From positions 1 through 37,927 of the forward strand of contig UYFQ01000481.1 of the NCBI GenBank assembly GCA_900617105.1: a stretch of DNA of 37,927 nt. The letters are read 5' to 3'. The stretch comes from Hydrurus foetidus. Taxonomy: Eukaryota. The position numbers and the translations under genes were made by a program. Positions 205-35,301 of the stretch are shown piece after piece. The notes beneath the pieces are model-generated. The model had not been told where the DNA came from. It saw only the letters and a list, made by a program, of their open reading frames with translations, and searched no databases. The stretch's first letter is position 1. Every line of letters starts with the position of its first letter.

Positions 205-628
205 TTATGTAATTCAATATTTGCAGCGTATTTCTTACTTGCTGTCTTCCACCTCTCTATGGCCACCATGCCGGCGTTATCCGGCGGGTCGTCTGGCTCC
301 ACGAATCCTTTGTAATCTGAGAGGACCCCATCTATGCCAATGATTTCTTTAATGGAAGATTCGTAAGCACTATACATATAAACTCTTAAACATTCAAGCC
401 ATTTCAACACGGCTTCCGGATCTGCCACTTGGCCTCGTGGCAGATCCAGGTAAGCACCTACCTCGGGCTTCCTACCTTTTACTATGGGTTTATGGGGCTC
501 GCCTTGCCCCCTACCATATCGACCCCTGCCCCCGCCACGGGACTGGAATCTTCCATCGCCTCGTCCTCTCATCCTTGCAATCTTTTTGCAACTTACTATC
601 TAAGCTATCTAAGGATGACTGTCGTTTA
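205..628 (-). repeat. Second copy of Copia-1 leader and gag N-terminus (tandem unit sharing the LTR)
   Basis: 205-852 is nearly identical to 5956-6601. Both encode MRGRGDGRFQSRGGGRGRYGRG... Confidence 0.9.
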
Positions 629-901
629 TGTTGGAATTCTGGGCGATTTACACGGAATTTCTTCCGAGTTCCCAAACGATCCCTGCACTTCCGACTGCTA
701 GCAACGCTCGCTCAAAAGAGAAGAAGACGTTCTATTCAGTAAGTTGGATTAAACGACAGTGACATGCTGTCGATTACATCTAGGTAGCATAACATGAGTG
801 CGAGGGTTGCGGTCAATGTTATCGCTGAATGTACGTACACCCGCGCATGAAAACAATCATACATCACACAGGGATCCTAGTCTAATCCGGATATCACAAC
901 A
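629..901 (-). repeat. Copia-1 LTR (3' LTR of the main unit, 5' LTR of the tandem unit), about 273 bp
   Basis: Has TGTTG...CAACA termini and is preceded on the minus strand by the purine tract ATGGGGGTG (902-910). It matches 6378-6602 plus 28898-28998. The outer boundary is ambiguous by about 3 nt. Confidence 0.8.
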
Positions 902-1412
902 CACCCCCATGATGGTTATTGTTTGAATAAGAGAATATGTTAATTAGCATATGCTTATATAGTATACTTATTGGTTATTGTTCATAATGTTTCACACAAC
1001 ACTCAGATAGGGAACTTAGTGTTAGGGTATAGTAAACAGTAAATTTTCTTAAAAATATTTTGCACGGAATTTTTGAATATTGACAAGTTTCATCGTGATA
1101 TGGTGTAAAATAAAACATGAGTGGTTGGATTTGTGAATGGGTATTACTCGAGAAAAACTATTTCTAAACCGTCAAAAAAGCGTCAGCTGGTGACCGGTCT
1201 CGAGTTCGATCCAACCGATGTTGGTGCCCTTAAATCCACTAAAACGTCGACATTCGATGTCGCAAAAGCGGTGTATCGATGTCCCTCGCGGTCCTATCAA
1301 ACAAATGTTGATTTAAAGCGAAATCAGATTTTTATTTTTATTTTGTAATTTATCTGGAAAAAGCGCTATAAGTGGGTAAGTCAAAATCAATAAATAACTC
1401 CCCTGAATTTCT

Positions 1413-2960
1413 TTATACATTGAGCACTTGGTCACGTAGCTCTTGGAATAGCTTCCCCTGCAGTGGCTTGGTCAGCAAATCTGCAATCATTTCTTTAGTA
1501 CTCTTGTAGGTTACAATAATATGGTCTGATTTAATTCGGTCATGCAGGAAGAAAAACTTGATGTCTATGTGTCTAGTTCTTTCACTGTTGGACCTACCGT
1601 TCTTAACTAACTGAATTGTGGATAGGTTATCTTGGTAAATTAAAGCTGGACCTACCTCATACTCTTGATGGATAAGGAAATTCCTAGTCCATAAAACCTG
1701 ATTACCTGCTTCAGTCATAGCTACTAGTTCTGCCTCTGTGCTAGACGTAGTATTTAATTTCTGAGTGGAACTCTTACCATATATTGCTCCCTTACCTAGT
1801 GTTATAATACAGCCAGTGTGACTCTTCTTATCTGCATGTACAGCGTATGATGCATCTATATAGGCTATAACCTTAACCGGAGTATCTACCTCTAGGGTCA
1901 GCGGCATAGCTCTAGTCTCTCTGATATACCGTATAGTATGCGCTAACTTATTCCAGTCGTCGGTTCTAGGTTCTAGGACTCTTTTAGTTAGATATGCTAT
2001 ACATGTCAGTATGTCTGGTCTGGTTCTCTTACTTAAATATAACAACTTAGCTGTTAGTGAGTGGAATCTCTCACGTTCTTTATCTTTCAATAAAGGACTG
2101 TTAAGATCGATCTTAAATAGATTATCGTCGGCAGGTGTTCTAGACACCCCCACAATCTCTATGCAATCGTCTAACAAGTCTTTTATGAAACCTTCCATGG
2201 ATATGACAACTCTGCCTAACTGCTCAAAGTTAAAAGTCATACCTATATAATTCAACACTTTACCTCTACTCTTAGTCAAGCCTGGGTATAGTTTTTCTAT
2301 CTCTGAAATTATACTATCTATACGCTTCTCATCCCTACTGCTGATCATCATATCATCAACATGGATAACTAAAGTAGTCTGAGTGGAATCTAGCTCAGTC
2401 CTATTGAATACACATATGTCTGATGGATTTACCTTATAGCCTAGCTGTGTTAAATCTGATGATATTTTATCATACCATAACTTAGCTGACTCTACGCATC
2501 CATATAATGCTTTCTTAAGCTTAACTACTACTGTTCCTTTCTCATTTACATACTTCTGATAAGACTTGTCAATGCTAACTAATATGTTAGTCAAATATTT
2601 ATTCAGTCTCATCAGCACTGCATGGTCACCGTCTAGTGGCATATCACTGTTGAGGAATGCACCAGGAAAATCGATCGTAGCGACCGCTCGATTTTCACTA
2701 GCAGCAATTGCAGCAACAATAAATACGCTAGTGGTGCTAACAGTTGGTGATGAACCGTTATCATATATATTTCTATCTTGTAGATGACCTCCTGCTACAA
2801 GTCTAGATTTTAGCTTATCAAATTTACCATCTGCTGTATACTTATCTTTTAAAAACATACTGCTGGTTATGATACTTTTCCTCTGATTGTAACTAAGACT
2901 GTTGAGGTGAACTGCCTCCCACACATTCTTATCACACATCTGTTGTAACTCTTTTTAATG
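1413..2960 (-). pseudogene. pol: Copia-1 reverse transcriptase and RNase H (frameshifted from the upstream pol)
   Basis: RT motifs KSRLVAGG, IDFPGAFL, KKALYG and HVDD. RNase H motifs YIDASYA, SSTEAE, YQDN, RHIDIKF and ADLLTKPL. Confidence 0.95.
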
Positions 2961-4690: not shown

Positions 4691-5140
4691 CTAACTATGT
4701 TGCCAAAGGCTAACTATATTACCTATACAATTGCTGTCAAAATAAACTCTTCCGAAATCCGTCTCGCCACACTCCGTGATTATCAAGGGTTCCCCCTGAG
4801 GGTTCACTCCATTAATAATCATCGGGGTAGCGGACGGCATAATACTATAAAATAAATCTCCACTACAAAATACTGACTCAGCTGCGCATGTATCTAACAA
4901 CACTTGTCTATCTGTAAATGTGGAACTGTGTGTATATACATTCGCACTAAAAATCACAGGGTCACCCCCACAATTTTTACTGTTCAGTGGACAAAAATTC
5001 TCCAAGCTGCATGCTTTATCTAACAATGGCACAAACGCAGGGTAACCGGTCGACGTTGCAAATACGTCATGCAGTCCGGTTTCCCCACACGGAACATTTA
5101 CATCCTTAGCTAGTGAATCAGGTAAAAAAACATATAAGGG
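4691..5140 (-). pseudogene. pol: Copia-1 aspartic protease
   Basis: VLLDTCAAESVF active-site motif, located between gag and IN. Confidence 0.8.
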
Positions 5141-5142
5141 AC

Positions 5143-6321
5143 TTACTTTTCCGAAGAAGTGTGACGCGCAGGTGCGTTCTTCCTCGGCGGCTTCTTACAC
5201 TCGTACGCGTAATGGCCCTCCTCCCCGCAGTTGTTGCACGCTCCGTAACGGGTACCGTACTCCTGTACGGCACCACCTCTCTCTCTCTGTGGGGTGGCCT
5301 CCCTATCCCTATAGGGAGTGCCTGCCCTCTTACTGCTCTCGCTGCCGGGGGTGTCGAATCCTCCCTTCTCAGCTCCGCTCTCTCCGCTGCCACGGCCTCT
5401 GCCGCCTCTCCCGGTTGAACCCGCTCTCCCACCCCGACTGGCCGCGAAAACGTTTCGCTTCTCCGAGTTCGGGGGAGCTCCTCCGTGGACGGGCCTTCCC
5501 ATAAGGAAGTTGGCCGCGTCCTGGTTGGCATCGGCCATGGTCTGCGGCCATGACCGAACCTTATTTTTAAACGTATTGATATATTCTAAATAGTTTGAAT
5601 TAAGTCCAGTTACAAATAATACAGCATGGAACTCATCTGTGTGATGGGCTCTTCTTCGTCGGCGATCCTGTATGACTCGCTCTTGACAAATAGAAGCGTC
5701 CTACACCTACTAAAATATGCAGCTAGATCTTCGTTTGATCATTTTATTATTGTAAAAGTTTCTAACTGCTGTAGTCATATTATATACATCTCCATACCTT
5801 TTGTTGTTCATGTGTGTTGCCACCACACATGTCAACACCTCCAGAGGATCGCAGTCCTCCATGGCTCTCTTGCCTGCCGGCATCTCGTTCACCCTTGTGA
5901 TCGAGGCCTCTGACATTTGACCTAATATACACCATACAATTTTGCGCAGTCTTTTTTATGTAATTCAATATTTGCAGCGTATTTCTTACTTGCTGTCTTC
6001 CATCTCTCTATGGCGACCATGCCGGCGTTATCCGGCGGGTCGTCTGGCTCCACGCTCCTTTGTAATCTAGAGGACCCCATCTATACCTATGATTTCTTTA
6101 ATGGAAGATTCATAAGTACTATACATATAAACTCTTAAACATTCAAGCCATTTCAACACGGCTTCCGGATCTGCCGCTTGGCCTCGTGGCAGATCCAGGT
6201 AAGCACCTACCTCGGGCTTCCTACCTTTTACTATGGGTTTATGGGGCTCGCCTTGCCCCCTACCATATCGACCCCTGCCCCCGCCACGGGACTGGAATCT
6301 TCCATCGCCTCGTCCTCTCAT
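5143..6321 (-). pseudogene. gag: Copia-1 gag (several frameshifts)
   Basis: RG-rich N-terminus, a DPLEVL block, and the CCHC knuckle CNNCGEEGHYAYEC before the stop at 5143. Confidence 0.88.
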
Positions 6322-6366
6322 CCTTGCAATCTTTTTGCAACTTACTATCTAAGCTATCTAAGGATG

Positions 6367-6377
6367 ACTGTCGTTTA
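6367..6377 (-). promoter_or_regulatory. Non-tRNA primer-binding site of Copia-1 (TAAACGACAGT), complementary to LTR 6499-6509
   Basis: Abuts the LTR end (CCAACA), has no TGG, and is a perfect 11-nt complement of a site inside the LTR. The same pair occurs at 618-628 / 750-760. Confidence 0.75.
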
Positions 6378-6602
6378 TGTTGGAATTCTGGGCGATTTAC
6401 ACGGAATTTCTTCCGAGTTCCCAAACGATCCCTGCACTTCCGACTGCTAGCAACGCTCGCTCAAAAGAGAAGAAGACGTTCTATTCAGTAAGTTGGATTA
6501 AACGACAGTGACATGCTGTCGATTACATCTAGGTAGCATAACATGAGTGCGAGGGTTGCGGTCAATGTTATCGCTGAATGTACGTACACCCGTGCATGAA
6601 AA
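6378..6602 (-). repeat. Copia-1 5' LTR, inner part
   Basis: Matches 629-853, then breaks at 6603. Confidence 0.88.
6556..6602 (+). repeat. 47-bp direct repeat (left copy) flanking the Helitron-like insertion
   Basis: ttgcggtcaatgttatcgctgaatgtacgtacacccgtgcatgaaaa, identical at 28898-28944. Confidence 0.95.
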
Positions 6603-6925
6603 TAAATTTTAACATGAACTCAACCGTTTGGACTAGGTTTACGTTAAAATTCTTTGTATGACCCAAATTTCTGGATGTAATATTAGTCTCCCTCAAAATA
6701 GCTGATTTGATTAGTCCCCCCGTATTTTTCTTTCGAAGGGGGGGTCGAACCCCGTATACTGAAGTGCGCACGTATAAATTCTGCATACGCACTTTTTTTA
6801 GTACGTACTGCAAGTACGTATTGGAATTTTGCTCTTTTCACACGATGGTGTGAAATAGTCAGCTGACAGGAAATTATACTATATCGTTAGTTATACAATT
6901 TAACCAAGTATAATAAGTGCACAGT

Positions 6926-11000: not shown

Positions 11001-11517
11001 TGTCAGCTTATATCAGCGATAAGTGCTATTTATAGCTGTATATAGCCGTTATAATCATCGATATGTAGCTAGGAATATCTCATACGTAAGTACATATATG
11101 CAGTTCGTAACTACATACAATGATCACTTTAAGTCGCTTCCTCAATGCTTATCGTATCATGTATAGTGTCATTGTTGTGGGTTCATGACCGCATATTTAG
11201 TATAGATTCCAGATTTTATGGTATGAGGGTACGAGAACTTTTCCATGTGTGATGTATGGTTTGAAGTATATCTCGTCGCTCGTCAACGTAGGCTTAAATC
11301 TACGAGTTCAAATTCAAATCTGAAATGGATGACGAATGAGAACTTATTGACTTGCGGCAGGTAGAATGATGTTCATCATGCAACGTCTTTTCAATTCGCA
11401 TGTGTTTAGTTTCTAATTCTTAACGAATATTCGATACTCAACTTCCAAACTTCTTCGCCTGGTCGCTTGTGCTTTTGGCCTCCTGCGACCTCATTGATCG
11501 TCCCTGATCAACTGACA
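11001..11517 (+). repeat. Copia-2 5' LTR
   Basis: TGTCAG...CTGACA. Only one difference from the 3' LTR was noticed by eye (11486 C vs 18411 T). Confidence 0.97.
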
Positions 11518-11526
11518 TGGTAGCGA
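11518..11526 (+). promoter_or_regulatory. Copia-2 tRNA primer-binding site (TGGTAGCGA, initiator-Met-like)
   Basis: TGG directly after the LTR. TGGTAGC matches the conserved 3' end of eukaryotic tRNAiMet. Confidence 0.75.
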
Positions 11527-11574
11527 TTGAAGCCTGAAGACTTCAAAGATAAGTTACCCGATTCCCCGTCCACA

Positions 11575-13942
11575 ATGATGCGAACAAGATCTGGCGCCGG
11601 TGACGATTCACCCGATGCTGAAGATGACTTCAGCGAGGAAATCACCGACGACGGCCCTCCTCCGCCGCATAATGATATGTCCGACATGGATCCTGCTTTG
11701 GAAGAGCAGGTGCTTGAGACCAACGTTGACGTTGTGTTTGATAGCTCTGCCTTCCAGGCAGCTGTAGATAGGGAAGTTGCCCGAGTTCTTAGGCAGAGAG
11801 AGAATGATGCGAAGGTTGATGCCCCTTATGGGACAGTCGACATTGCTCTACGGGCGGATCTGCCGTTGCGCGATCAGCCCCACTCTCGAACCCTATTACC
11901 TCGGGCGAATCCACCCATTGTGAGAATGTCCAGCGCGTATGTGTCCGAGAATGTTGAACAAAGTAGCATAAGAGAAATGAATCCAATGAATAATGAGGGG
12001 GGAAACTCTGGCTATTGATAAATTTAGCTACTCCAACAACAATATCTCTCAACAACGACGCGATTCTGATGCGTGGAACCAAAATTATAGTCGGCGCGAA
12101 AGTCCGAGTTGGAATAATAACAATAGTTCTCAACAACAACGCAGTCCGAATAGTAACAACACATCTAATAGATCCCAGCAAGAACGCGCGGAAAATATTA
12201 GACAGTCCTCTTCTCTTCCCAATATTCATGAGTATGAATCTGAGGAAAGCTACAATAGAAGAACGCCAAAACTTCGGCATAGATTAGTCCCTCAGACTAC
12301 ATATATCAAAGTTGCGCAAGTATTCATAAGTGAATGCGAAAAGAATAAGATAGATATGCATACCCCCGACAAATTTCGTCGATTACGGGGATTACATGCT
12401 ACATTAGCCAATGCTGATTTACTTACTCTCTTGACCGGACATCGTCCGCAACCTGTCATAGATCTTGAAGTAAATAAGTACGGTTACTCAGAAAGCCGTG
12501 TAATTAACATACCTGTTCTTTCTCAAACTGATGAGGATTCTTCATCCGTCTTCTCTACAAATAACACAACTCATTTCGAGGACGTTATGTTGAAGGAAGA
12601 CGATGCCTTTAAGTTTAAATATGATAATGAGAGATTGTATTCATTGATATTCGCCATGTTTTATCAAAATCTTCATCAACATGTTACAATCCAAAGCGAA
12701 TCCACACGCAATGGGATTAATGCATATCATGATATTCATCAATTTGTGTTCGGTCAGAAGCAAATTGACATTAAGTTCGCCAAACGCGCTCTTGAAAATC
12801 ATAAAGTAAATATACATTCCCCAATGCGGACAGAATATTCTCGATGGGAAACTGCGTTCTCTAACCTCGAGCATGCCCAAATGCGGCGCCTAACTGAAGT
12901 TGAAAAAATATCTTGGCTATCAGATCAATTCAAAGATGATCCCAGATCCCAAATACAATCCTGCTTCGTTTCAAGTGCGTCCAGTAATGAATCTTATAGT
13001 CTGATTATAGAGAAACTTCTCCGTATATACGATCTCATATCCGAAAATACCACATCTCGTGTTGCAAGTTTCGATACCTCCAATATGACTTCCAGTAGTA
13101 CCTAGCCTCATATCCTTTATCAAAATACTCTTTCAAATTCTGGTGCTCCTCCTCCAAATCCTCCTCTTCAAAACAAGTACAAACCTAATAACAATTATGA
13201 CCCCAATAAGTCAGCCAGTCAAAAGAATGCCAAGACTCAACCACCAAAAGTTGACAGTCGGAATAGTGACAAAAAGAGACTAGCTGCCGGAGGATTTTGT
13301 TTTAAGTTCAATATGGATGTGTGCCCTAAGTCGGCTCAAGAATGTCAATATAAGCATGAAATTATGCCAAAAGACTTCCGACCCCCTACACCTCCTCGTC
13401 GTGATAATTAACCGGTATCCTCGGCCAAAACCCAACCGGCTAATCCCATATATCCTAACCCAAGTTTCAAGTTAACTCAAATTCAACTTGACTCTGTGGG
13501 ACCTATGTCTGGCAATGCTCATGGCAGATATGCTGGCGGATATTCTCAAAATCAAATTAAGAAATTAAAGACCTTGGAAGAGGTACTAAATCAAGCCACT
13601 ACACCCACTGAGCATCGTGTTCAAGCGTTCTCTAGTTGGGGTAATCCATCTCAGCCTGCATATACAACGCATGGTGAGAAAGCTAATACACTAATGAGAA
13701 TTTGAATCGACCCGAATAATCAGCGTATATTGAAGACGCAACGGTTAGATAATTCTTGTCATAATAAGATTACAGAAAATGATTTAAAAAACAATCAGAG
13801 ATGTTTACTTCAAAATGTCATGTATTACCAAGATCCCAGATCTTTCCTCTGGAACATTGAACCTTACCCAGTCACCTATTATCCACTCAAAGGATACCGT
13901 GATGGCCCTTGTGACGTCTTAATGAAGCTCAACAGCAAATAA
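11575..13942 (+). pseudogene. gag: Copia-2 gag region (frameshift and in-frame stops) with a CCCH finger
   Basis: Lies between PBS and protease. Has a helical core around NGINAYHDI and CFKFNMDVCPKSAQECQYKH at 13298-13357. Confidence 0.7.
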
Positions 13943-14088
13943 ACTTTGAAAATGAAATTCATAATGAAATTAATAATGATAATGAATTTGAAAATATAGT
14001 ACTACCCATTATTGAAGAAATTCCTCCACCAGAAGTAGTACATGTCCCTCCAGATTTATATCATATAATTACTCCTGAAACTCCTGAT

Positions 14089-17000
14089 ATGACTTTGTTC
14101 GATTATTATTATAATCTGAACGTCCTTCGTACCAATTCTCATTTTAAAGCTATCAAACAAACACCTCATCAAATTATTTTTGATTCTGGTGCTTCTACCT
14201 GTGCTACGTCTGATGCTTCGCTGATTGATAATATAGTTTATGGTAATGGTGTCAAAGCTACTCCAGCTTTTGGTCCACCAGTTACTTCCCAAGCTTCCGG
14301 CAAATATGGCCCCCTTGGTTTAGACATTATCCTAATGCCAGGAATGAAAGAAACTCTAATATCAATATCCGAATTATGTCATGGTGGTATATCCGGTGAG
14401 CCTAATGGTGTCTTCATTACATCGGAAGGTCTACGTTGTTTTACAATAGCAAGCGTACGTCACCCTATGCAACTCATGCATGATCACGGAAAGGAAATAG
14501 TTCGTGGATTCTTATCCAATGGTGTCTATGTATATAAGGGTCCTGATGATAATTACAATAATGGACCAGTCCATAATACAGTCCAAGTTCCTAATATGAA
14601 TCCGACATATCCAATGCCTATATCCAATCAAAATATCCCTCTTAATAAGTCTATTCATAAGACGACTACAATACCATTACAATTATACCTGACTCAGTTT
14701 AAACCTGTTTCATTGTATGATCATGTACATATGGTAACCGGACATCCCGGTAATGCAGGCATGGCCTGGCATCTCAAAAATTCCACGGGAGCAAAATACT
14801 CCGAGGAAGATGCGTCCAAACAACGGGGTGCATGCAAAGGTTGTGTATACGGTACGATGCATCAAACACCTACCGATCACAGACGAGAGCATCGCGATCT
14901 TCCTAATAAACCTGGACAATGTTTCACACTCGATGCCTATTCTCATACTTCCTATTCCACACGTGGATACAAGTATTGTGATATATACACTGATATAGCT
15001 ACACGTCGTAGTTATCCAGTATTCACCAAAGATAGATCAGCACATGAATTATGTGAACAAAGCAATAAATTATTCTGCCAACACCCAGAATGGCAATATG
15101 TTCATGATACTGACACTCGTCGGTTCATTCGAGTAGACCCTGAACGCAATTATAAATCGTTCGAGTTCCTCGCATTCGCCTCCTCCAAGGGTTACAGCCT
15201 CGAACGTACACCGGCACGTGACAAACATGCTGGCGGTATTGCTGAGCGCGCAGTTGGACACATTGTTGCCAAAACCAACGTCGCAATGTTAAGCCCTGAT
15301 ATTCCTGTGCCTCAATCATTCTGGGATTTAGCTATGAAGTATGCATGTGACACAGCATCATACAATTTCAGTACTGTCATAGGAACTTCACCATACATGA
15401 AAATAACAGGTCAACCAATAAATATCAAATATTTGCAACCGTTTTGGGCATCATGTTACGTGTTTATACCACTAGCAGACAGAGTTAAGTTGGGTAGTCG
15501 CCGAGCATATAAAGCTCGATTTGTCGGTTATTCCAACACATTTCTCTTGTTTCCCAATTACTTTGTACTACCATATTCAAATGGTCAGTACGGTAAAGTA
15601 CGTGAAAGTAAAGATGTCATCTTTGATCCATCCATAGACTTTAAGATCTATGTTGATGACGAAGAGCCTTATGACCGTGAATTTGTTAATACAGATCACT
15701 ATGTCCCTTTCCTACATCGACCAGCTGCTCCTCTCGAATTACAAGGAGAATTAGCTGAACCCCATGTTGAGATAGTCGAAGATACTTTTGAACCTGATTT
15801 TCCTGAACGGTCTCAAGTCCTCGCTCCTCCATGTGAAAAAGAACAACATACACCAATACCATCTGAAGATGTCAATAACGAAAATATTAATATTGTAAAC
15901 ATGCCATACACTGATGATCAAAATGAACCAGTCTATTGGTATAGTCTTCAAGTAAAGAATGATGAATATGCAAAAGTAATGTGTGAATCACAGCATTATT
16001 CAAAATTAGGTGTACCAGTTGATCCTAGAATTCCTAAATCTTTTAAACAAGCTATTCAAATTCCAGCGTGGAAAATAGCCATTGATAAAGAATGTGAGAA
16101 ATTCGCCAAAAATGATTGCTTTATTGTTGTTCCTTTTAATGGTCAACAATTAGTATCAATGCTATGGCTTTTAGTATTAAAACTGATGGTACTTTTAAAG
16201 CTAGACTTGTTGGCCGTGGTGATCTAATGCAACCTTGGGTTCATTTCCATCCAGACCAAGTATATTGTGGAAATGTTTGTGCTTGTTCTATTAAGATTTG
16301 CCTTGCTATCGCTGCAAAATATAAACTCACAATGCGGGGTGGCGATTTAGAAGGTGCTTACTTAGTAACACGTGCAAATAAAGATTACCCAATATTTATA
16401 AGAACTCCTGAAGGATATAAAATACCTTTCGGAATGTGCATACAATCCATTGGCAATTTATACGGAACTCCAACAGCCGGTCAAAATTTTAGTATAGAAT
16501 TTGACAAATGTGTAATGGAGTGTGGATATCAAAATACACCATGGGATTTGAAATTATTTTACAAATGGATCGATGACAGAATACTATTGTTAATGGCTCA
16601 TAGTGATGATTTCCGATGGTTTGGTGATTTAAAAGATATTGCAGAATGGGATTTACTGCTCAAAAGTTTTAATAACCATAAATACAAAGTAACTGACTGC
16701 ACTGACAAAGAATTTGTAGGCATTCGTATTACTTGCGATGAAAACTTTAATTATTTCATTGATCAAACAAGAATGGTCGAAGACATTATCGATGGAATTG
16801 GAATGAAAAACGCTAAAGACGAAACATTGCCATACCCATTAGATAAACTCAGTTTATCAAAATTAGATAATGCAACTCCAGCACAATTATCTGAATGCAG
16901 TAAATTTCCTTACCGACGAATCGTGGGTCAATTAATGTACGGTGTAGTACATACTTTGGTTGCCATAATGTACGCACTCAATGTATTATCCCGCTATGGT

Positions 17001-17633
17001 AATAACCCAGGTCCTCGTCATATTGAATTTGCTAAACATTTACTTAGATATGTTAAATATTCGAAAAATGATCGATTAATGTTTAAAACTCATGATGGAC
17101 CACGAGACATTTCAACAATGACAAGAATATTGCAATTAAGATTTCAATGTGATGCAGACCTTGCTGGTAATCCTGACACTCTACATTCGCAAACCTCATA
17201 CCTTGGGTATTTGGGTGACGCATTAATATGTTGGTGTTCAACAGATCAAGGTAGTATATCAACATCTACAGCAGAATCAGAAATAAAAGCAGTTAATCAC
17301 ACATTAAAATGTGAAGTCATTGCGAATCGTGGTATGTTAAATCAAATGGGTTGGACACAATCTCCAACGGTAATTGAAGAAGATAATAAAGCATGTGTGG
17401 ATGCTTCAGTTGTAACACATATGACAAGAGGGTTACGTCATCTTGACCTAACAGAAAATTTCCTTAAAGAAAAATACGCCGATGGTACATGTGTACTAGT
17501 TAAAATAACACCTGCCGAAAATAATTCAGATATTGGAACAAAACGAGTCACAAAACAAATATTTGATAAGTTGACTAATGAAATAATTGATAAATCTTTA
17601 CGTATCGTAAAACAAAAAAATAACACTGAGTAG
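14089..17633 (+). pseudogene. pol: Copia-2 pol (PR, IN, RT, RNase H; frameshift near 16165)
   Basis: IFDSGAS (PR). H..GH...CKGC and TLDAY/RVDPE/AERAV (IN). FKARLVGRG, GDLEGAYL, NLYG and HSDD (RT). CDADLAG, STAESE, EDNKAC and SDIGTK (RNase H). Confidence 0.95.
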
Positions 17634-17925
17634 TGTTTCTATGAAAAAAAAAATTAAAAAAAATTAAAAAGTAAAAGTGAAGACGTTCAAAATAAAAGTT
17701 ACAAGCGATTTTAAGTTTATAAATAATATGAACTTCTCGGTTTCAAAGATTTCAAGACCAAGACGATGGAGCTCCAGATACCACTTTCTCATTCATATGG
17801 CTTCGCCATTTTGTAGAATAGTTTAATATTGTAGTATTTATGATGTCTAATGATATCAATTGATTAAAAAAACCGAATTGAAAATTCCGGGGTGTGTCCA
17901 ATAATCGATTGATGATTACGGGGTG

Positions 17926-18442
17926 TGTCAGCTTATATCAGCGATAAGTGCTATTTATAGCTGTATATAGCCGTTATAATCATCGATATGTAGCTAGGAA
18001 TATCTCATACGTAAGTACATATATGCAGTTCGTAACTACATACAATGATCACTTTAAGTCGCTTCCTCAATGCTTATCGTATCATGTATAGTGTCATTGT
18101 TGTGGGTTCATGACCGCATATTTAGTATAGATTCCAGATTTTATGGTATGAGGGTACGAGAACTTTTCCATGTGTGATGTATGGTTTGAAGTATATCTCG
18201 TCGCTCGTCAACGTAGGCTTAAATCTACGAGTTCAAATTCAAATCTGAAATGGATGACGAATGAGAACTTATTGACTTGCGGCAGGTAGAATGATGTTCA
18301 TCATGCAACGTCTTTTCAATTCGCATGTGTTTAGTTTCTAATTCTTAACGAATATTCGATACTCAACTTCCAAACTTCTTCGCCTGGTCGCTTGTGCTTT
18401 TGGCCTCCTGTGACCTCATTGATCGTCCCTGATCAACTGACA
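17926..18442 (+). repeat. Copia-2 3' LTR
   Basis: Copy of 11001-11517, preceded by the short PPT ACGGGGTG. Confidence 0.97.
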
Positions 18443-21671: not shown

Positions 21672-21889
21672 TGTAGCCATATGCCATTTAGTATGGCATT
21701 ATGAGCTTCTAGGACTATCGGTCTACAGATCGGTCTACAGGGTCGTAGGCTTCCAGCCTCACCCTTACAACGTATACTCTGCTATCATCTAGCTAGTCCA
21801 CGTAGAAGTTACCCTAGCTACGGCTTTCCCCTGTAACTAAGACTTCAGCTCCTCTCCCTTCCTTTCTCTCTTTTGCCATTAGGACTACA
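21672..21889 (+). repeat. Gypsy 5' LTR (218 bp)
   Basis: About 4 substitutions and 1 indel relative to 27734-27950. Confidence 0.96.
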
Positions 21890-23542
21890 ATAGATCTATT
21901 CCGTCCACTCTTCTTTAGCTAATACCTCCGACTTCTACCTCTCCTTCCCGATACGCCACCTCCAGATCCCAGCCTCTGTCGACAGAGACGCGGACTCGAG
22001 TGAGCCTTCGTGGATAAGTCTTTTTCGTTACTTAAAATCCATCTCAGCGATTAAGTTCGTCTGCAGACGATTTCTCTGGGGATTTTCACCGAGACCAGTT
22101 TCGTCGGTTTAACTATCACAACTTGGATCCTCGAAGCTTTCAAGCTTGTGCACTTTCCAGTTAATTCTAGATCGTTTTGCACGATTGCCAAGGGTTAGTG
22201 AGCAACGTTAAGTCGTTTTCTCGCCTCAACTGTGCTTGGTTGGCTTTAAATAGCTATTCTCACCGAGATTTTTGACGCATCAAAAATCTTGACTTCTCAC
22301 CATATACCTGCTTCGTTTCTGCTGTTGTTTCCAAGGTTTTCTACCTTACAACACAGGGGGGAAACTCTGGCAAAAAAATTTCCAGAGTTAACTCTCTTCA
22401 GAAGAAATTTTGACAGTAATATCTCTTAAACCATATCAGGCTTAATTGCTTGATATGTCGAGCGGCTCTTCTAACACCGTTCCCACCTCGGGAATATTGC
22501 GAACTCCTGATGGCTTTCAAACAGCATCGGGTAGATTGCGTCAATAGCAATCACAGTCGAGTAATTCTTCGACAAATCAACGCTCGGGTTCATCACCAAT
22601 AGCATTCGATAATCGTCGTTCGCAGGGTTCATTACCTGACAATGTACGTCGCTCTCAGTCTTCGACTGTTCAATTACAACAACCTTTGTTCGTATTGAAA
22701 GGGCCGCACATCTCTCCTGAAGAGGCTGTTCTGTTTAAGACACAGGCGATACGTGTCCCTGACATCGGATCGTTTACGCCATGAACAAACGCGGGTCAGT
22801 TGCGTCAGCAACGATCGCAGTCCAGAGTTATTTCTCTTGTTGGAACAAACCTTTTGAAAATTATTTTCTATCGCATAACGCGCTTAATTGCTACTTATCG
22901 GGGGATGTTTCCCAAGGGATATACTCCACCAAAGCTCTTCTTCATGAAGAATTCATCGTCGACATGCGCCTTCGCGTTGAGCGCCATGCTTTCGACAAGA
23001 GCAATCGTCAAACCTTCTATTGCATTGCAAAAGGATTTGTTCGAAGGTGTGATGTCACTCCGTCCAGCTCTCAGCTGGAAGCTACAAAGGCAGAACCCTT
23101 CTTTCTAGACCAAACTGCATGACTCCGTACCACGCGTGTTATCAGACCTTCCTGGCTTTACTCCATAACTCGAATCGGGGACTTTTTATTAAACTGTGCA
23201 GCCCACTTTTAATCCCGTAGCGCACAAGGTGTCGGGGCGATTCGAACCAACGATCTGTTTGATCCCAGACAGCTAACCACTTAAGCGATAGCTGGTTCGT
23301 GCTCTTCATGTAAAATGTAAGCGTTTCAATACCGTTATTGGGCATCGTAACAACTCTGCGCAGAGGACTGTATAACTGTCAATTTTTGTGTCGGTGTAAA
23401 TACATCTCGAAAATGCACACCGGATTATAAATATTTTTTTTTTTCAAAATTATTATTTTTTTTTTTTCGAAGTGATATGCAGAATTGAATTAATTGCATC
23501 ACAGTTGAATCCAATGCTTTACATCTTTGCTATAATTCACTT

Positions 23543-26500
23543 ATGCCTTTGGTTGTGTGTAGTGGCTTAGATCGTACTGGCTATAATAATAACACTGTAA
23601 TCGACATAGGTATTAATTTCAAATCGATTAATAATGTATGCCATACCATATATTTGACTGTAAGGGTCAAAGAATCGTCGCTCATAGACTTAATTATTGG
23701 CAGAGTCTCTTTAAATAAATACTCGTTTTTTAAATTAACTCCTTTCGCTCTTGGGATAAGTGAGGAACACAAACCGATTTCCTCGTCAAGTTTCGATTGC
23801 TCAGCGTGCGACGAACTATCTGATGTCGAACCGTTACTTTCGCAACGGTTCACAACAATATTATCCAGTGATAGGATTAATAAAAATTTGATAAAAAAAT
23901 CAAAAAATTTACCTATCGAAGAACAGTCAGTTGCACAAAACTTTCTTCTACTTCTAATATCCTAAGGGACTTCGGACAACCTACAACCGAAGGGGAAAGA
24001 CTGACTATCTGTGGTCACTCATGTTGTTCGTCCGGGACAGGGTCCTGCCCGGCATTATTGGAATTAGCTACTCCAGAGGCCGGCTGTGAGAGGGGTCGGG
24101 CAGTTCATGGGAGTATCGTTCACCCTGAACTGACTCGTGACGGTGATACACCTCCCGAAGATGGATTAGATTACATCCCTCCGACACCAGGGTTTCTTAA
24201 CGACGAAACGCATGACACTTTAGGCCACTCGCCAAGTGTTGTCATTATCAGTAACGATGAGATTGACAGTGAGAAAACCGATACTTTCGGACCTTTCCTC
24301 CAAGGGACTAGCCCTGATTTACCGCCCGACAGTAACGGGTCAGACAAGTTTCTTGACGAAATAACTTTCGTTGGTATGGAAGACCAAATAATTGCAATGA
24401 AACTTCTCTGCTTAGAGTTTCGCGACTTGTTCAGCAATAAAATTGCAACTCTACCAGCTAAACTAGATCCGTTTAGACTGGATGTGAGGGAACAAGAATG
24501 GGAAATATCCGCAAACCGGACCCCGGTTCGACCCCAATCATCTCGTAAAGAGATTGAAATAAAAAGCCTTAGACGAGATGCTTTCATTAGGTATCATCGA
24601 ATCTTCGAGTGCAGTCTATTACAGTCACCCTGTAGTAGTACAAAAGACAGCTGATACGTATCGATTCTGCATCGATTACAGACTCTTAAATGCGTGCATG
24701 CAACCAGCTAGTTTTCCGCTACCGAATATTCGGGGTCTTTTTGAACGCATTGGCCGTCACCAAGCCGATATTTTCGGTGTAATGGACTTAACTGCCGGTT
24801 ACCATCAAGCTCCGCTTTATGAACCACATCGCCATTTTACGGCATTCATATGCTATGCAGGCATATTCCATTTTACTAGACTCCCCTTTGGACCTAGGTG
24901 TGCTCCCTCTTACTTCCAAGAGCAGATGGCCACCAAAGTCCTTCGCGGTCTCATATATATGATATGCGAAATATATCTTGACGATATAATTATATATGGC
25001 CGGGGATTTGCAGAGTTTCTTAGTAGACTGAGAGATATATTTTTACGTTTACGTGAATTTCGCATTTTGCTAAAAGCAAAGAAATGCAAATATGGTTGTA
25101 AAAGCCTAGAGTATGTTGGTCGTACAATCTCAAAAGACGGATTATCCATGTCTGAGACAAAAATTGAGTCTATACTCAACTTTCCAAGACCACAGACTTT
25201 AACAGCACTTCGCTCGTTACTGGGTCTTGCGAACTATTTTAGAGGATTTGTACCAAATCACTCTACTATAGTCGCACCTTTACAGAGATTAGTTGATTCT
25301 AAAGCTCACAAAAAATCACCAATTATTTGGACACCTAGTGCTATACTAGCATTCCAACACGTAAGAGTGGCTATATCAAGATGCCCTCTAATGTATTTTC
25401 TTGATGAAAAGTCAACTATTAAGTTATACACTGACGCATCAGATTATGGAATCGGTGGTGTGTTAATTCAAGTTGTTAACAATGAATGGAGACCTATCGC
25501 TTTCATAAACAAGTCACTTTCTGCAACACAATTAAAATGGTCCACGATACAAAAAGAAGCTTATGCTATCTATTACTCGTGTCAACAACTTGATTCTTTA
25601 ATTAGAGATCGTGAGTTTGAAATACATACCGATCACAAAAACATTACATATATGAAACAAACACCAACTTCAATGGTGTCACGGTGGTTTATAGCTTTAC
25701 AAGAATTAAATTTCAAAGTTATATTTGTGAAAGGCACACAAAATCAGCTAGCGGACGATCTATCAAGACTTTGTCCCAATATAGCTAAGTTAGCTTTACC
25801 GTTCACACCGGTAGCTACTAGTAATAATGATATGGTCGTTGGTGACCAAAGGACGGTGGACGAGGACGATGGACGAGGACGGAGGCGAAAAACGAAGATG
25901 GGGGAGATGGAAGAGTATTCTTATAGTTTACAGCGAGGTATGTGTACTCGCGTGGAAACTTACCGGACTTCACTACAGTACAGTGTATCCGTACATGCAG
26001 TACAGATACAGTGAGGCTACAATGAAATGGTATTATCTGCACTGACAGTTATACCTGAACCTAATCCAGAACAACTTGAATGGATGGAACAATGTCACAA
26101 CGCAATAGTTGGACATGGTGGTTCTTCTAGAACTCTTACCAAACTTTTCAGTTTAGGTCATGCGTGGAAGTATATGCGACAGCACGTACGTATGTTCATT
26201 GCATCTTGCCCATGCTGTCAAAAGATGAGCATGATAAAGGTACCGGTTGAAGTTCAACATTATGTGACTTCTTCTAACCGACCTTTTGACGTCGTGAATA
26301 TCGATTTTATCGGGCCATACCCAGACGATTCATACGTTCTTGTTATTATTGACACATTTTCTAAATGGATTGAACTTTTCCATTGCAAAGATGCCACTGC
26401 TAAATCAGCATGTGAGGCACTCTTGCAACATTTTGGTCGCTACGGCGCTCCCAATATGATTAGATCTGATAAAGGTTCTCATTTCGCAAACGATTTGATT

Positions 26501-27345
26501 AAAGAGTTTCTTGTTTTAACAGGTACTCCACACAACCTTACATTATCTTATTCTAAACAAGAAAATGGGGTAGTTGAACGTGCTAACAGAGAAGTCAACA
26601 GACATCTTCGCGCATTAACCTTCGAAACTAATGATGTAGATAACTACAGATTAAGTCTTCCATTTGTACAAAGAATTATAAATAGTTCTATACACGAAAC
26701 TACAGGCGTAGCACCTGCTAGTATGTTGTTCGGGAATCAAGTAAATCTTGATAGAGGTATTCTTATACCCAATCCGGTAATTCGAAACACTGAAAAGAGC
26801 TCAGCTCTTATATCTAATATGTTATACATACAAGATCAAATAATGCTAAATGCAATTGCAAAAGTAACACTAGCAAAAGCAAGACATTTAGTGAAAAATG
26901 CCAAACCATTGACTGTATTTCCAGTTGGTCCATATGTTTTAGCAAAGTATTCTGTGGGGCCACCGACTCGTTTACACACTAAATGGCAGGGCCATTTCAG
27001 GTCATTTCGTATATCGATTCAGAGTACACATTACTTAATTTAGTGAATAAATCTGAACGAATTACCCATGCAAGTAATCTGAAGCAGTTTATTTTTGATC
27101 CTTCAAGAACATCTGCTCCAGATATTGCTAGACGAGATTATACGGAATTCTTTGTTGAATCCATTGTAGAACATCGTGGAGACACAAAACGATTAAATTC
27201 GTTGTTTTTTAAAGTAAAATGGCTCAATTACGATGATTCACATAATTCATGTGAACCATGGAATGCATTAAGAACATGCGACAAATTACACGATTATCTT
27301 CGTTCAAATCAAAAGCTCAAGAAATTGATGCCTAAAAACTTCTAA
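23543..27345 (+). pseudogene. pol: Gypsy pol: protease C-terminal remnant, RT, RNase H, integrase, chromodomain
   Basis: DLIIGR (PR). RFCIDYR, DLTAGYHQ, LPFG and YLDD (RT). TDASDYG, TDHKN and ADDLSR (RNase H). HHCC, IDFIGP/SDKG/VERAN and GPF (IN). FFVESIVEH...FKVKWLNY...EPW (chromodomain). Confidence 0.95.
25828..26021 (-). repeat. Probable solo LTR inserted antisense between RNase H and integrase
   Basis: TG...CA ends. The minus strand starts TGTAGCC like the host Gypsy LTR and has TATAAG followed by a pyrimidine run. Imperfect 4-bp TSD ataa/atga. Removing it restores the open frame. Confidence 0.6.
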
Positions 27346-27733
27346 ACATTAATTTGTTATTATGAGTGGTATCTTTTGAAGATTTTTAGCCTAATTTTTT
27401 GCCCTCTGGGTTTTTATGGTTTTTTAGTCAGTAAGAATCTGACATACCCACATCATAATATATGTTATTTTGTACATACATTAATTTGTATTGATTTACA
27501 AAATAAACTTATTTCCACGACCACTCCCGACTCTCTTTAAATTTTGTTATTTTGTAACATTTTGTTTTTACTATTTTATATTGAAATCTTTTCTTTTTCT
27601 TTTATATTTCTGTAATCGAATTACTTTTCTTGTAAATATTTTAGTGGAATTTTTTTTTTTTTTTTTTTGAAAAATAGCTTAATTAGAGATAAGTGGGAGT
27701 AGGGTCATTCTCTGTGGAGATAAGTAGGAGTAG

Positions 27734-27950
27734 TGTAGCCATATGCCATTTAGTATGGCATTATGAGCTTCTAGGACTATCGGTCTACAGATCGGTCTAC
27801 AGGGTCGTAGGCTTCGAGCCTCACCCTTACATCGTGTATTCTGCTATCATCTAGCTAGTCCACGTAGAAGTTACCCTAGCTACGGCTTTCCCCTGTAACT
27901 AAGACTTCAGCTCCTCTCCTTCCTTTCTCTCTTTTGCCATTAGGACTACA
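27734..27950 (+). repeat. Gypsy 3' LTR (217 bp)
   Basis: Preceded by the PPT gagataagtaggagtag. Confidence 0.96.
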
Positions 27951-28897: not shown

Positions 28898-28998
28898 TTG
28901 CGGTCAATGTTATCGCTGAATGTACGTACACCCGTGCATGAAAACAATCATACATCACACAGGGTACAAGATCCTGATCTAATCCGGATATCACAACA
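28898..28998 (-). repeat. Copia-1 5' LTR, outer part (includes the right copy of the 47-bp duplication)
   Basis: Matches 807-901 apart from a 6-bp indel and a few substitutions. Confidence 0.9.
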
Positions 28999-29981: not shown

Positions 29982-30236
29982 TGATGGCTGCAATATATCT
30001 AACCGCAACGATAATCAGGAAATCACATTTGTTTCAATACTCAATTTGAAATACTCAATTTTAGCTATTATGGGGTTAAATAAGTGACGGGCTTTCGGCT
30101 GAAGCGTCGAGGAAACAGTCTGAGTGTTCGAACTAGGACTTTTCAAAAAACATAGGGAACAACTGGTTCCTATATATAGGGTACTATAATATAGGGTATT
30201 CCATCAAAAGCCTATAGAGGACCCTATGCCTGTGTA

Positions 30237-31819
30237 CAGTGTCGGACAAAAAAGTCGAGACCCCCCCATTTTCACGGATTTTTACAGACAACTTTTTTAC
30301 GGTTACAGCTACGGTTTCAAGTTGAGTGACGAATAGCTAGAAAATTCAATTGCGGTTCTGCCCATATATACTTTAGATAGGTGAATTTCAAATCTTAGCG
30401 TTCAAATTTCAAAAAATTGGTCGGCGCCGCAGCGAGAAAAGTGGTCAGCACTTTTCAGCGCTGCAATTCTTCAGTTATGGAGCGCAGTAAGAAAAATCCT
30501 TTGAAGAGTACTCTTCATACGCATACTGGAAGGGTTTCCAACAATCACCGCAGCAATCGGACAGTTCTGGAGCATAGAAGACGAGCCTCAACCGGTCCCA
30601 AGGAAAAATCGAGGAAAAGACCTCGATGAAGTCCAATGCGGTGGTATTGTCACCAGTAAACGGCTTGGATTGTCAATCAAGAAGATAATGAAGGTCTACA
30701 AGAAGTCCAGGTCAGCGATATTCAAAGTTCTGAGGAAATACAAGCTGGACAAAGTACTGGGTAGGGCAGATGGAAGTGGCAGAAAGCGAAAAACAACGGC
30801 GCAACAGGATCGGAGGATCATGCTCGAAGTCAGAAAGGATCGCAAGGTCACTGGTGAGGAAATCCGTGCATCGCTTGGCCTTAACGTCAGCGACAAGACG
30901 ATAAGGAGGAGGATCAGTGAGTCGGGAGAATTCAAGTCTTACTGGGCTACGAAGAAGCCTTTCATTAACGAGGTGAACAGGAAGAAGCGTGTCGACTGGT
31001 GTCGGCTCCACCAACACTGGACTATTGAACAATGGAGAAACGTCCTCTGGTCCGATGAGTCACCTTTTGTGCTAAGATTCAACAAGAAGATTAGGGTCTG
31101 GCGCCGGTACAATGAACGGTACAATCCAGCATGCACCATAGCGTCTGTCAAGCACGACAAGAAGATCATGGTTTGGGGTTGCTTCGCAGCTGCAGGAACC
31201 GGCAGCTTACACAAGGTGCAGGGAATAATGGAGCAAGTCCAGTATCGAGAAATCCTCGAAGAGAAGATGCTGACTAGTGCGGAGGATCTCTTTCCTGACG
31301 GTGGATGGACCTTTCAACAGGACAATGACCCAAAGCATACCGCCAGACTCACGAAAAGGTGGTTTGAAGACACTGGGATACTCGTCCTCGACTGGCCTTC
31401 TCAATCTCCAGACCTTAATCCCATCGAAAACCTCTGGTCCATACTGGATGCCAATCTCAAGAATTGGAAGCCACAAAACGAAGATGAGCTGTTCGAAGTG
31501 CTGAAAGAAGGCTGGAGAGACCTCCCAGTAGCCTTGTTAGAACTTTTGTCAGACAGCATGCCGCGTAGAATAGAAGCTGTGATCAAAGCGAAAGGTTTTG
31601 CGACGAAGTACTAAAACACCTCACATGAGTAGAACTATTTTCTTGAAATTTGAACGCCAAGATTTGAAATTCACCTATCTAAAGTATATATGGGCAGAAC
31701 CGCAATTGAATTTTCTAGCTATTCGTCACTCAACTTGAAACCGTAGCTGTAACCGTAAAAAAGTTGTCTGTAAAAATCCGTGAAAATGGGGGGGGTCTCG
31801 ACTTTTTTGTCCGACACTG
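30237..31819 (+). mobile_element. Tc1 family transposon
   Basis: TA TSD (30235-30236 and 31820-31821). Near-identical TIRs of about 176 bp starting CAGTG (30237-30412 and 31643-31819). Confidence 0.97.
30477..31614 (+). CDS. Tc1 transposase, DD34E (start uncertain; a possible mini-exon 30477-30486 splices to 30554)
   Basis: GRKR, KKPFI, WSDES, MVWGCF, QQDNDPKH and WPSQSPDLNPIE, with 34 residues between the second D and the E. Frame is open from 30505 to 31614. Confidence 0.92.
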
Positions 31820-31999
31820 TACCAACGCAGAGAATGCCTTCTATACATTCAAGAGTGCACAGCACAGCAGGGTTGTGTTTGATTCGTAAGCTCCTTTCCC
31901 ATGAATCAGAGCATCGGAAAGTCTACGGTGGACAATAGTTAGCACTCTTCAAACACCCTTCAGCGATAGAATTCGTTGACAACATCCACCTGACGCGGA

Positions 32000-34486: not shown

Positions 34487-35021
34487 TCTCCTCTTGATTC
34501 AGGGTAAACACTATTACCAAGATGAAGTACGATAAAAGTTGTGAGATGACGTAATGAAGCAATGTCTTGAGTATCTCCAAGGGCTCGCTTGCTAAACCCA
34601 GGGAGCAAAACAAATGAGCTACAATGACATACCAGATACAATCTTTTGAGTGACTTCGCTTTGATTTTTGGGAATTCTCTGGCACAGTCCAGTAAATTGC
34701 AGCCCTTCTTTTCCGCTCACAGTGCCTCTGATGGAGCACTCAGTCAAATAAAATACATCAGTGCATATCCTCCTTTATTATGACTAGCAGCCTCATTGGT
34801 ATGTCGACAGTCGACCCATGCATCATGCTATTCCAGTGCCCGGCATTAGGCCACGGACAATAATCAGGCCATGTTGGGATATGCGTAGACTAGGAATCCC
34901 TTTGGGGATAATATCATGAGCGATATCCAGTCCGGATAGTTGTAGCTTAGGCATACGTTTTATGATTCCTTGTAGACCGGTTGATACTATACACCAACCC
35001 GCGGTCACATCAGGAATGAAA

Positions 35022-35274
35022 TGTTGGAGTGATGAATCACACCAAGTAGCATACTAGCAGTTAGTATACAGCTGATGAAGTGGATGTTTTGACATGCTAA
35101 CCACTTCTTATTAAAAGAGACTATATGACATCACGTCATTATACCTACACTAGTTGACTTTTCTGCTGCTCTGGCTAGGCTTGCATTTCACAAGGTGTAT
35201 TCTCAACGAATCACTAGCAACCTACCAGTTCAGTACCGGGATCAGTTATCCCTAAAGGAACGGTTTTACCAAGA
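35022..35274 (+). repeat. Inferred Copia-3 5' LTR
   Basis: TGTTGG...CCAAGA (one mismatch from CCAACA). The partner LTR is not in the window. The end is supported by the adjacent self-complementary PBS-like site. Confidence 0.55.
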
Positions 35275-35301
35275 TAATAAGAAGCCTTTAAAGACTTTAT
35301 C

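What the first reader, a model, noticed from the sequence alone, without database searches (positions are those of the whole stretch)
6338..6509. Copia-1 appears to self-prime reverse transcription (Tf1-like) instead of using tRNA
Seen: on the element strand the LTR ends CCAACA and is followed by TAAACGACAGT (6377-6367), with no TGG. Its exact 11-nt complement ACTGTCGTTTA lies inside the LTR (6509-6499) and starts at the A of an Inr-like TCACT. The pairing stops exactly at the LTR boundary, so a primer cut after nt 11 would start minus-strand DNA at the LTR end. A second 9-bp helix (CAACTTACT 6495-6487 with AGTAAGTTG 6346-6338) brackets the PBS. A CGGAA-GAAA-TTCCG hairpin lies in U5. The same arrangement is repeated at 589-760. 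Established: S. pombe Tf1 (Ty3/Gypsy, Tf1/sushi group) anneals the first 11 nt of its mRNA to the PBS and cleaves them with RNase H, while Copia elements normally use tRNA. Inference: this is a self-priming Copia lineage. It may have been suggested for diatom CoDi elements, so the literature needs checking.
Basis: partly seen in the sequence, partly recalled or inferred. Interest (0 to 1): 0.9.

Follow-up and report, generated by a model that had tools for sequence, protein, structure and literature searches.

The report
Self-priming Copia retrotransposon of freshwater microbes
This jumping gene has, where such elements normally bind a host tRNA, an 11-base site that exactly pairs with its own terminal repeat, and most relatives keep that pairing with different letters, so the lineage likely starts copying itself from the front end of its own RNA, a trick proven only in fission-yeast elements.

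Summary
Confirmed. The 11 bases after the LTR end (6377-6367) have no TGG and are the exact complement of 6509-6499 in the LTR. The LTR end holds up: contigs from two studies run into unrelated flanks at that base. The copy at 589-760 is a truncated tandem element, not independent evidence. Among 42 related families, 27 of the 40 with an AACA site pair 9-33 bases from that site with their own LTR; shuffles give about 0.5 families. Cross-family pairing is rare (17 of 702). The paired arm starts at a TCA initiator in 15 of 27 (background 4%). The second 9-bp helix is not conserved, and no Tf1-style accessory helices were found. The start site and the cut are untested. Self-priming is already predicted for plant TAR Copia elements (PMC6317226), so it is not new to Copia; I found no paper on it for this protist clade. 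This scan has found the same thing in diatom Copia elements of other genomes. Verdict: likely self-priming, a new variant of a known kind.

The parts
6378..6605 (-). 5' LTR of Copia-1, ends CCAACA at 6378; its 5' end is missing (about 45 bases)
   Evidence: Repeat alignment; end fixed through its copy at 629 by divergent flanks
6505..6511 (-). Initiator-like TCACTGT; the A at 6509 is the predicted transcription start
   Evidence: 6 of 7 match to the Phytophthora INR YCAYTYY (PMC3599244); TCA at the arm start in 15 of 27 families; start not mapped
6499..6509 (-). Putative self-primer, RNA bases 1-11
   Evidence: Exact complement of the PBS; duplex -13.6 kcal/mol
6367..6377 (-). Primer-binding site directly after the LTR, no TGG
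   Evidence: same geometry in relatives
6382..6432 (-). Predicted U5 stem (6432-6420 with 6392-6382) enclosing the CGGAA-GAAA-TTCCG hairpin (6415-6402)
   Evidence: Fold; hairpin probability 0.9-1.0; U5-adjacent stem not enriched in relatives
6338..6495 (-). Second 9-bp helix (6495-6487 with 6346-6338); family-specific, probably not essential
   Evidence: Present; end pair lost in nearly all laid contigs; no excess in relatives
5143..6321 (-). gag, own ORF with a CCHC zinc knuckle; broken by frameshifts in this copy
   Evidence: intact 394-aa homologue P0123 is 94% identical over the N-terminal 122 aa
2867..5194 (-). Protease and integrase region of pol, in several frames
   Evidence: no Pfam hit for the integrase, assigned from motifs and homologues
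1413..2954 (-). Reverse transcriptase and RNase H
   Evidence: RVT_2, E 2e-22; RNase H part assigned from position and motifs; order gag-PR-IN-RT-RH is Ty1/copia
902..910 (-). Polypurine tract before the 3' LTR
629..901 (-). Complete 3' LTR, 273 bp, TGTTG...CAACA, with the primer copy at 760-750
   Evidence: loose ends at 629 with agreement 0.43 and 0.45
205..628 (-). Second, truncated element in tandem: PBS 628-618 and the first 122 codons of gag
   Evidence: contigs continue into normal gag at 205
28898..28998 (-). 5' fragment of the same LTR after a different purine tract; supports 901 as the LTR start
35104..35284 (+). Copia-3, a distant relative in this window: 10-bp pair 35104-35113 with 35275-35284, directly after CCAAGA and starting one base after the A of CCA
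   Evidence: its LTR end is inferred, no second LTR in the window

Best explanation
The site after the LTR pairs exactly with 11 bases inside the LTR, and those bases are likely the first 11 of the element's RNA, which likely serve as its own primer for reverse transcription in place of a tRNA. Steps: (1) transcription starts at A6509 (inferred from the initiator motif); (2) bases 1-11 pair with bases 133-143 (complementarity shown, folding predicted); (3) a cut after base 11, most likely by the element's RNase H as in Tf1, frees a 3' end opposite the first base outside the LTR (inferred, untested); (4) reverse transcriptase copies U5 and R from there, and the plus strand starts at the polypurine tract 910-902 (standard Copia cycle); (5) copying of the primer into the plus strand would rewrite the PBS from the RNA's own 5' end in each cycle, which would explain the strictly Watson-Crick match (inferred). 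The copy in the window is frameshifted and probably dead; the family is recent.
For: LTR end fixed by divergent flanks in runs of two studies: 15 and 10 contigs, agreement 0.43 and 0.45. In loci L022 and L036 the two LTR copies part at, or within 6 bases of, the base where the paired arm begins. Counting the window, 28 of 41 families with an AACA site pair 9 or more bases from that site; shuffled upstream sequence gives a mean of 0.5, maximum 3 in 30 rounds. PBS of one family against the LTR of another: 17 of 702 reach 9; the window's PBS reaches at most 6 in 26 other families. Pairing never extends 2 or more bases into the LTR (0 of 27). The arm starts at TCA in 15 of 27 against 4.2% background (P 2e-14). 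No TGG in 27 of 27, and 25 distinct first 9-mers. All 9 loci in the RT clade of Copia-1 (SH-aLRT 97, quick tree) carry the pairing: 106 of 110 cells are Watson-Crick, with up to four pair types at one position. Internal control: Copia-2 in this window has a normal TGGTAGCG site and no self-pairing at its LTR end.
Against: No RNA data: the start site, the cut and the primer on cDNA are not shown. The primer helix has probability 0.67-1.0 in a 190-base 5' fragment but only 0.05-0.17 when the fold is extended to 310 bases; the whole-fragment z-score is only -2.0. The accessory helices that Tf1 needs are not conserved. 12 of 27 arms do not start at TCA. Five of 42 related families show no pairing (L024, L037, L054, L057, L075): two are too short upstream and three show no recognisable LTR end. 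Many arms are AT-rich, and L050's 28 bp lies in low-complexity sequence. The host tRNA set was not available.
Confidence: 0.85

Rival explanations
1. The same 5' bases prime, but not by a cut in cis: a short start-site RNA or the second packaged genome supplies the primer in trans.
For: No conserved accessory structure to position a cut; primer length varies from 9 to 18 bases, with outliers of 28 and 33, and the loop from 72 to 267 bases; the cis helix is weak in longer folds.
Against: The 3' end of the arm is fixed at the LTR edge and is mostly ...UUA (PBS starts T 23, A 22, A 24 of 27), which a defined cut explains most simply; Tf1 is a precedent for the cut.
Confidence: 0.08
2. The helix is structural (packaging, dimerisation or translation control) and a host tRNA fragment or other small RNA is the true primer.
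For: Half-tRNA priming exists in Copia lineages Osser, Bryco, Gymco-II and Bianca (PMC6317226); host tRNAs could not be searched (no genome; none in the window).
Against: 25 different PBS 9-mers in 27 families, each matching its own LTR and rarely another's, cannot follow a conserved tRNA; the pairing covers the very bases a primer must occupy.
Confidence: 0.05
3. The real LTR is the whole 650-bp repeat, so the supposed PBS is an internal inverted repeat without a role in priming.
For: The direct repeat does run from 856 to 205 and from 6605 to 5956, past the supposed PBS.
Against: Contigs leave into diverse flanks at 629, while at 205 they continue into ordinary gag; the extra part encodes the gag N-terminus; TGTTG...CAACA termini follow a polypurine tract; relatives share the geometry.
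Confidence: 0.02

Closest known systems
Tf1/Tf2 of Schizosaccharomyces pombe, Tj1 and the Tf1/sushi group (Ty3/gypsy chromoviruses)
   Same: PBS next to the LTR is complementary to the element's own presumed 5' end; the length here (11 bases) equals that of Tf1 (PMC7175516 passage; PMC4600332 passage).
   Different: Other superfamily (integrase before RT, RVT_2). The three-duplex 'pretzel' that Tf1 needs (PMC10085805 passage) is not conserved here. Primer length varies between families. Cleavage is shown for Tf1 and not here.
TAR lineage of plant Ty1/copia (Houba, Osr-1)
   Same: Copia elements with predicted self-priming, 89% of 203 elements, by a test much like mine (PMC6317226 passages and supplement row).
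   Different: Plant lineage, mostly a single GAG-PROT-INT-RT-RH frame (79%). Copia-1 has gag ending in a stop, a weak RVT_2 score and non-plant relatives. No TAR sequence was on hand, so separate origin is inferred, not tested.
Diatom CoDi groups (Maumus et al. 2009, PMC2806351)
   Same: Copia elements of algae, often with gag as a separate ORF1; a plausible home for this clade (from recall).
   Different: No CoDi sequence could be compared (supplements unreadable). The words 'priming', 'tRNA' and 'self' do not occur in the paper's main text.
Fungal GalEa Copia elements with a Conserved Hairpin Site (PMC5445492)
   Same: Copia elements without a tRNA PBS.
   Different: Their site is a local palindrome and hairpin, and the authors found no complement in the LTR. 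Here the complement lies in the LTR at an initiator.

Membership tests
Ty1/copia LTR retrotransposon | Domain order gag-PR-IN-RT-RH with an RVT_2-type RT | tested here: met
   ORF order; RVT_2 E 2e-22 and zf-CCHC; integrase by motifs and homologues
Ty1/copia LTR retrotransposon | TG...CA LTRs with a polypurine tract | tested here: met
   901-629, PPT 910-902
tRNA-primed LTR elements | TGG within 0-5 bases of the LTR end (whole tRNA 3' end) | tested here: not met
   Absent in Copia-1 and in 27 of 27 positive families; present in Copia-2
Half-tRNA-primed Copia (Osser, Bryco, Bianca) | PBS complementary to the anticodon arm of a host tRNA | not testable with these tools
   No host genome or tRNA set; PBS diversity argues against it
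Self-primed elements (Tf1-like mechanism) | At least 10 bases starting 0-5 bases after the LTR are complementary to the LTR | tested here: met
   11 bases at offset 0; 26 of 41 families reach 10 or more
Self-primed elements (Tf1-like mechanism) | The complement is the 5' end of the transcript | tested here: inconclusive
   Initiator enrichment 15 of 27; no mapped start site
Self-primed elements (Tf1-like mechanism) | RNase H cut that releases the primer | not testable with these tools
   Needs biochemistry
Tf1/sushi group | Ty3/gypsy chromovirus: RT-RH-IN order | tested here: not met
   Copia order
Tf1/sushi group | Three-duplex pretzel with helices next to both sides of the PBS | tested here: not met
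   U5-side median z -0.04 (P 0.62); leader-side median z -0.35 (P 0.011, 3 of 26 below -2; window +0.7); exact-match test shows no excess
TAR lineage (plant Copia) | RT clusters with Houba/Osr-1 | not testable with these tools
   No reference sequences were available
CoDi lineages | RT clusters with CoDiI, CoDiII or CoDi6 | not testable with these tools
   No reference sequences were available

The most novel reading that the evidence does not exclude
A large, old clade of protist Copia elements evolved self-priming independently of Tf1/sushi and of plant TAR, in a minimal form. A single helix runs from the initiator A to a conserved UUA at the LTR edge, with no pretzel, any length from 9 to over 18 bases, and a PBS rewritten from the RNA's own 5' end in every cycle.
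Probability: 0.55. Interest if true: 0.7.

Novelty: new variant of a known kind. Interest (0 to 1): 0.55.

Why it matters
Self-priming is proven only for a Ty3/gypsy element and predicted for one plant Copia lineage. A widespread protist Copia clade with clear compensatory change would show that tRNA-free initiation is common in the other main superfamily too. It bears on whether hairpin priming came before tRNA priming, as proposed in PMC3601003 (passage). It gives a test of whether a Copia RNase H can cut an RNA-RNA duplex without Tf1's accessory helices. Such elements would also escape control through tRNA supply or tRNA fragments (my inference), and LTR finders that require a tRNA PBS would miss or misjudge them.

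Tried and rejected
Long-LTR reading (650-bp repeat): rejected. Second helix and Tf1-type pretzel as conserved features: not supported. A rule that located LTRs from the polypurine tract and terminal inverted repeat alone was too noisy: it found the expected ends in only some loci and missed the window's own LTR, so I used AACA-anchored counts. Gag-based scans found no relatives in viral or metagenome contigs. RT and integrase scans of viral contigs found none. A splice donor overlapping the gag stop (GTAAGT at the end of gag) is not shared by relatives (0 of 17). No host genome was held, the window has no tRNA gene, and the protein atlas gave no result, so host and lineage names are open. No RNA run was laid, so the start site is open; the RNA runs listed hold only 9-10% of the words and are no evidence. 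The careful tree did not finish; the quick tree is used, and the Copia-2 outgroup sits on a very long branch, so the root means nothing. Literature searches found no paper on self-priming in algal or protist Copia; most subscription journals, Repbase and GyDB are not covered.

Full report
Observation. On the minus strand the LTR ends CCAACA at 6378 and is followed by TAAACGACAGT (6377-6367). Its exact complement lies at 6509-6499 and starts at the A of TCACTGT. The next bases are A against A, so the pairing ends at the LTR edge. The 11-mer occurs only at these two sites and in their copy at 628-618 and 760-750. None of 5000 dinucleotide shuffles of the LTR gives an 11-base complement; 16 give 9 or more. 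The second helix and the U5 hairpin are there as described.

The element. Copia-1 reads gag (ATG 6321, zinc knuckle, stop at 5143), protease, integrase, then RT-RNase H (2954-1413; RVT_2, E 2e-22), which is the Ty1/copia order. The integrase has no Pfam hit and is assigned from motifs and homologues. A polypurine tract (910-902) precedes a 273-bp LTR, TGTTG...CAACA, at 901-629. The 5' LTR is cut at about 6605. This copy is frameshifted in gag and pol, but homologues at 90-99% identity exist. The 20 runs that hold it or part of it are mostly freshwater, biofilm, sediment and glacier samples. The host is a eukaryote judged from the window's content; I could not name it, and 'stramenopile alga' is a guess.

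Where the LTR ends. That could have placed the site inside a long LTR. Contigs from four runs of two studies settle it. At 629 loose ends disagree with each other (15 contigs, agreement 0.43; 10 contigs, 0.45), as expected for many insertion flanks. At 205 they agree and continue into normal gag. One of these runs may be the window's own source. So the 3' LTR is followed by a second element truncated after 122 gag codons, and the repeat at 589-760 is no independent evidence. Among the 40 variant rows shown (56 not shown), none falls in the primer or the PBS, while 738 A>G, which breaks the end pair of the second helix, is nearly fixed.

Relatives. An integrase alignment brought 77 metagenome loci (the best 80 of 125 confirmed stretches, 28-46% identity) and 3 genome-collection loci. 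Many are circular assemblies of one LTR plus the internal region. Of these 80, 54 had enough sequence upstream of gag; with the window they form 43 families. I asked how many bases starting right after an AACA pair perfectly with upstream sequence. 41 families have such a site and 28 (27 of 40 relatives, plus the window) give 9-33 bases, 26 give 10 or more. With upstream sequence shuffled the mean is 0.5 families, maximum 3 in 30 rounds. Of the other 15 related families, 9 have a 10-15 base pair as their best inverted repeat beside a variant LTR end such as TACA (judged after the fact). L078 pairs 14 of 15 by eye. Five show nothing: L037 and L057 are too short upstream, and L024, L054 and L075 show no recognisable LTR end. 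In L022 the two LTR copies part exactly where the paired arm begins, and in L036 within 6 bases.

Controls on 27 positive families (L053 dropped because its arm starts at the contig edge). A family's PBS pairs 9 or more bases with another family's LTR in 17 of 702 trials; the window's PBS reaches at most 6. Pairing extends one base into the LTR in 14 of 27 and two or more bases in none. The upstream arm starts at TCA in 15 of 27 against 4.2% background (P 2e-14), a feature not used in selection. The Phytophthora initiator is YCAYTYY, and that paper cites initiation at the A from mammalian data (PMC3599244, abstract and passages); the window matches 6 of 7. No family has TGG near the LTR end, and there are 25 distinct first 9-mers; only the first three bases are biased (T 23, A 22, A 24). 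In a quick RT tree (careful search unfinished) Copia-1 sits in a clade with support 97 that holds 9 loci at 51-58% RT identity. All 9 carry the pairing; over 11 positions and 10 elements 106 of 110 cells are Watson-Crick, 1 is G-U and 3 are mismatches, all at positions 10-11, with up to four pair types at one position. The ends of L008 and L018 were chosen after the fact. In the window itself, Copia-2 has a normal TGGTAGCG site and no self-pairing at its LTR end, whereas Copia-3, a distant relative, pairs 10 bases after CCAAGA.

Results against. The second helix is peculiar to this family: self and cross-family matches do not differ (4.7 vs 4.8 bases). PBS-flanking duplexes of the Tf1 pretzel type are not enriched on the U5 side (median z -0.04) and only slightly on the leader side (median z -0.35, P 0.011; window +0.7; 26 families, L050 and L053 left out). 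The primer helix is predicted with probability 0.67-1.0 in the first 190 bases but 0.05-0.17 in 310 bases. No RNA evidence for the start or the cut was obtained, and host tRNAs could not be searched.

Mechanism. Shown: complementarity, its position at the LTR edge, compensatory change across families, absence of TGG. Inferred: transcription from A6509, pairing of bases 1-11 with 133-143, a cut after base 11 (by RNase H if it follows Tf1), minus-strand synthesis from the first base outside the LTR, and renewal of the PBS by copying the primer. I put this at 0.85. Priming by the same bases in trans, a structural helix with a host RNA primer, and a long LTR are the rivals.

What is known. Tf1 pairs its first 11 bases with the PBS and cuts between 11 and 12 with RNase H (PMC7175516 passage); it needs three duplexes (PMC10085805 passage); Tj1 is proposed to do the same (PMC4600332 passage). 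Self-priming is also predicted for plant TAR Copia elements, 89% of 203, including Houba and Osr-1 (PMC6317226 passages and supplement row; its source Capy 2005 and the Levin papers I did not read). Fungal GalEa elements lack a PBS but have no LTR complement (PMC5445492 passages). The CoDi paper's main text has no 'priming', 'tRNA' or 'self' (PMC2806351); its supplements were unreadable and may bear on this. Eight searches found no report for algal or protist Copia, within an open-access library. This scan has 50 earlier notes under these words, and 7 of the 8 shown describe diatom-type Copia elements in other genomes; none matched this RT by sequence. I tested the claim on my own loci, not theirs.

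Verdict. The feature is real and the reading is well supported by comparison, unproven at the bench. It works like Tf1 but is not a Tf1/sushi element, and membership of TAR or CoDi could not be tested. New variant of a known kind; interest 0.55.

Noticed in passing
window 34872-35303 (+): Copia-3 5' region: LTR likely TGTTG...CCAAGA (about 403 bp) with a 10-bp self-pair at the PBS position; a second likely self-priming family in the same window.
   Followed up: partly
window 11001-18442 (+): Copia-2: LTRs of 517 bp at 99.8% identity, AGTTA target duplication, tRNA-type PBS TGGTAGCG resembling the GalEa site quoted in PMC5445492; a young insertion.
   Followed up: partly
window 21672-27949 (+), site at 21891-21900: Gypsy element with a GTAT target duplication; after its 5' LTR there is no TGG and no LTR complement but a perfect 10-base palindrome ATAGATCTAT, recalling the palindromic site of fungal GalEa. 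Priming mode unexplained.
   Followed up: no
window 5140-5150 (-): The gag stop overlaps a perfect splice-donor-like GTAAGT, and many close gag homologues end in SSEK; not shared by 17 distant loci. How pol is expressed is unknown.
   Followed up: partly
window 205-901 (-); L014, L056, L068: Head-to-tail tandem copies sharing one LTR occur in the window and in some loci; in the loci they may be assembly artefacts of circular contigs.
   Followed up: no
L042 and L050: Very long self-pairs of 33 and 28 bases at the LTR end; L042's extends upstream well beyond a usual primer length.
   Followed up: no
window 30224-31832: Tc1/mariner-like DNA transposon with 161-184 bp terminal inverted repeats and a 369-aa ORF (30505-31614); family name from recall of the motifs.
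   Followed up: no
window 33323-34300 (-): Host VIT-family transporter gene (Pfam PF01988), apparently in several exons.
   Followed up: no
L001, L002: Elements of this clade are binned into actinobacterial MAGs, probably eukaryotic contamination.
   Followed up: no
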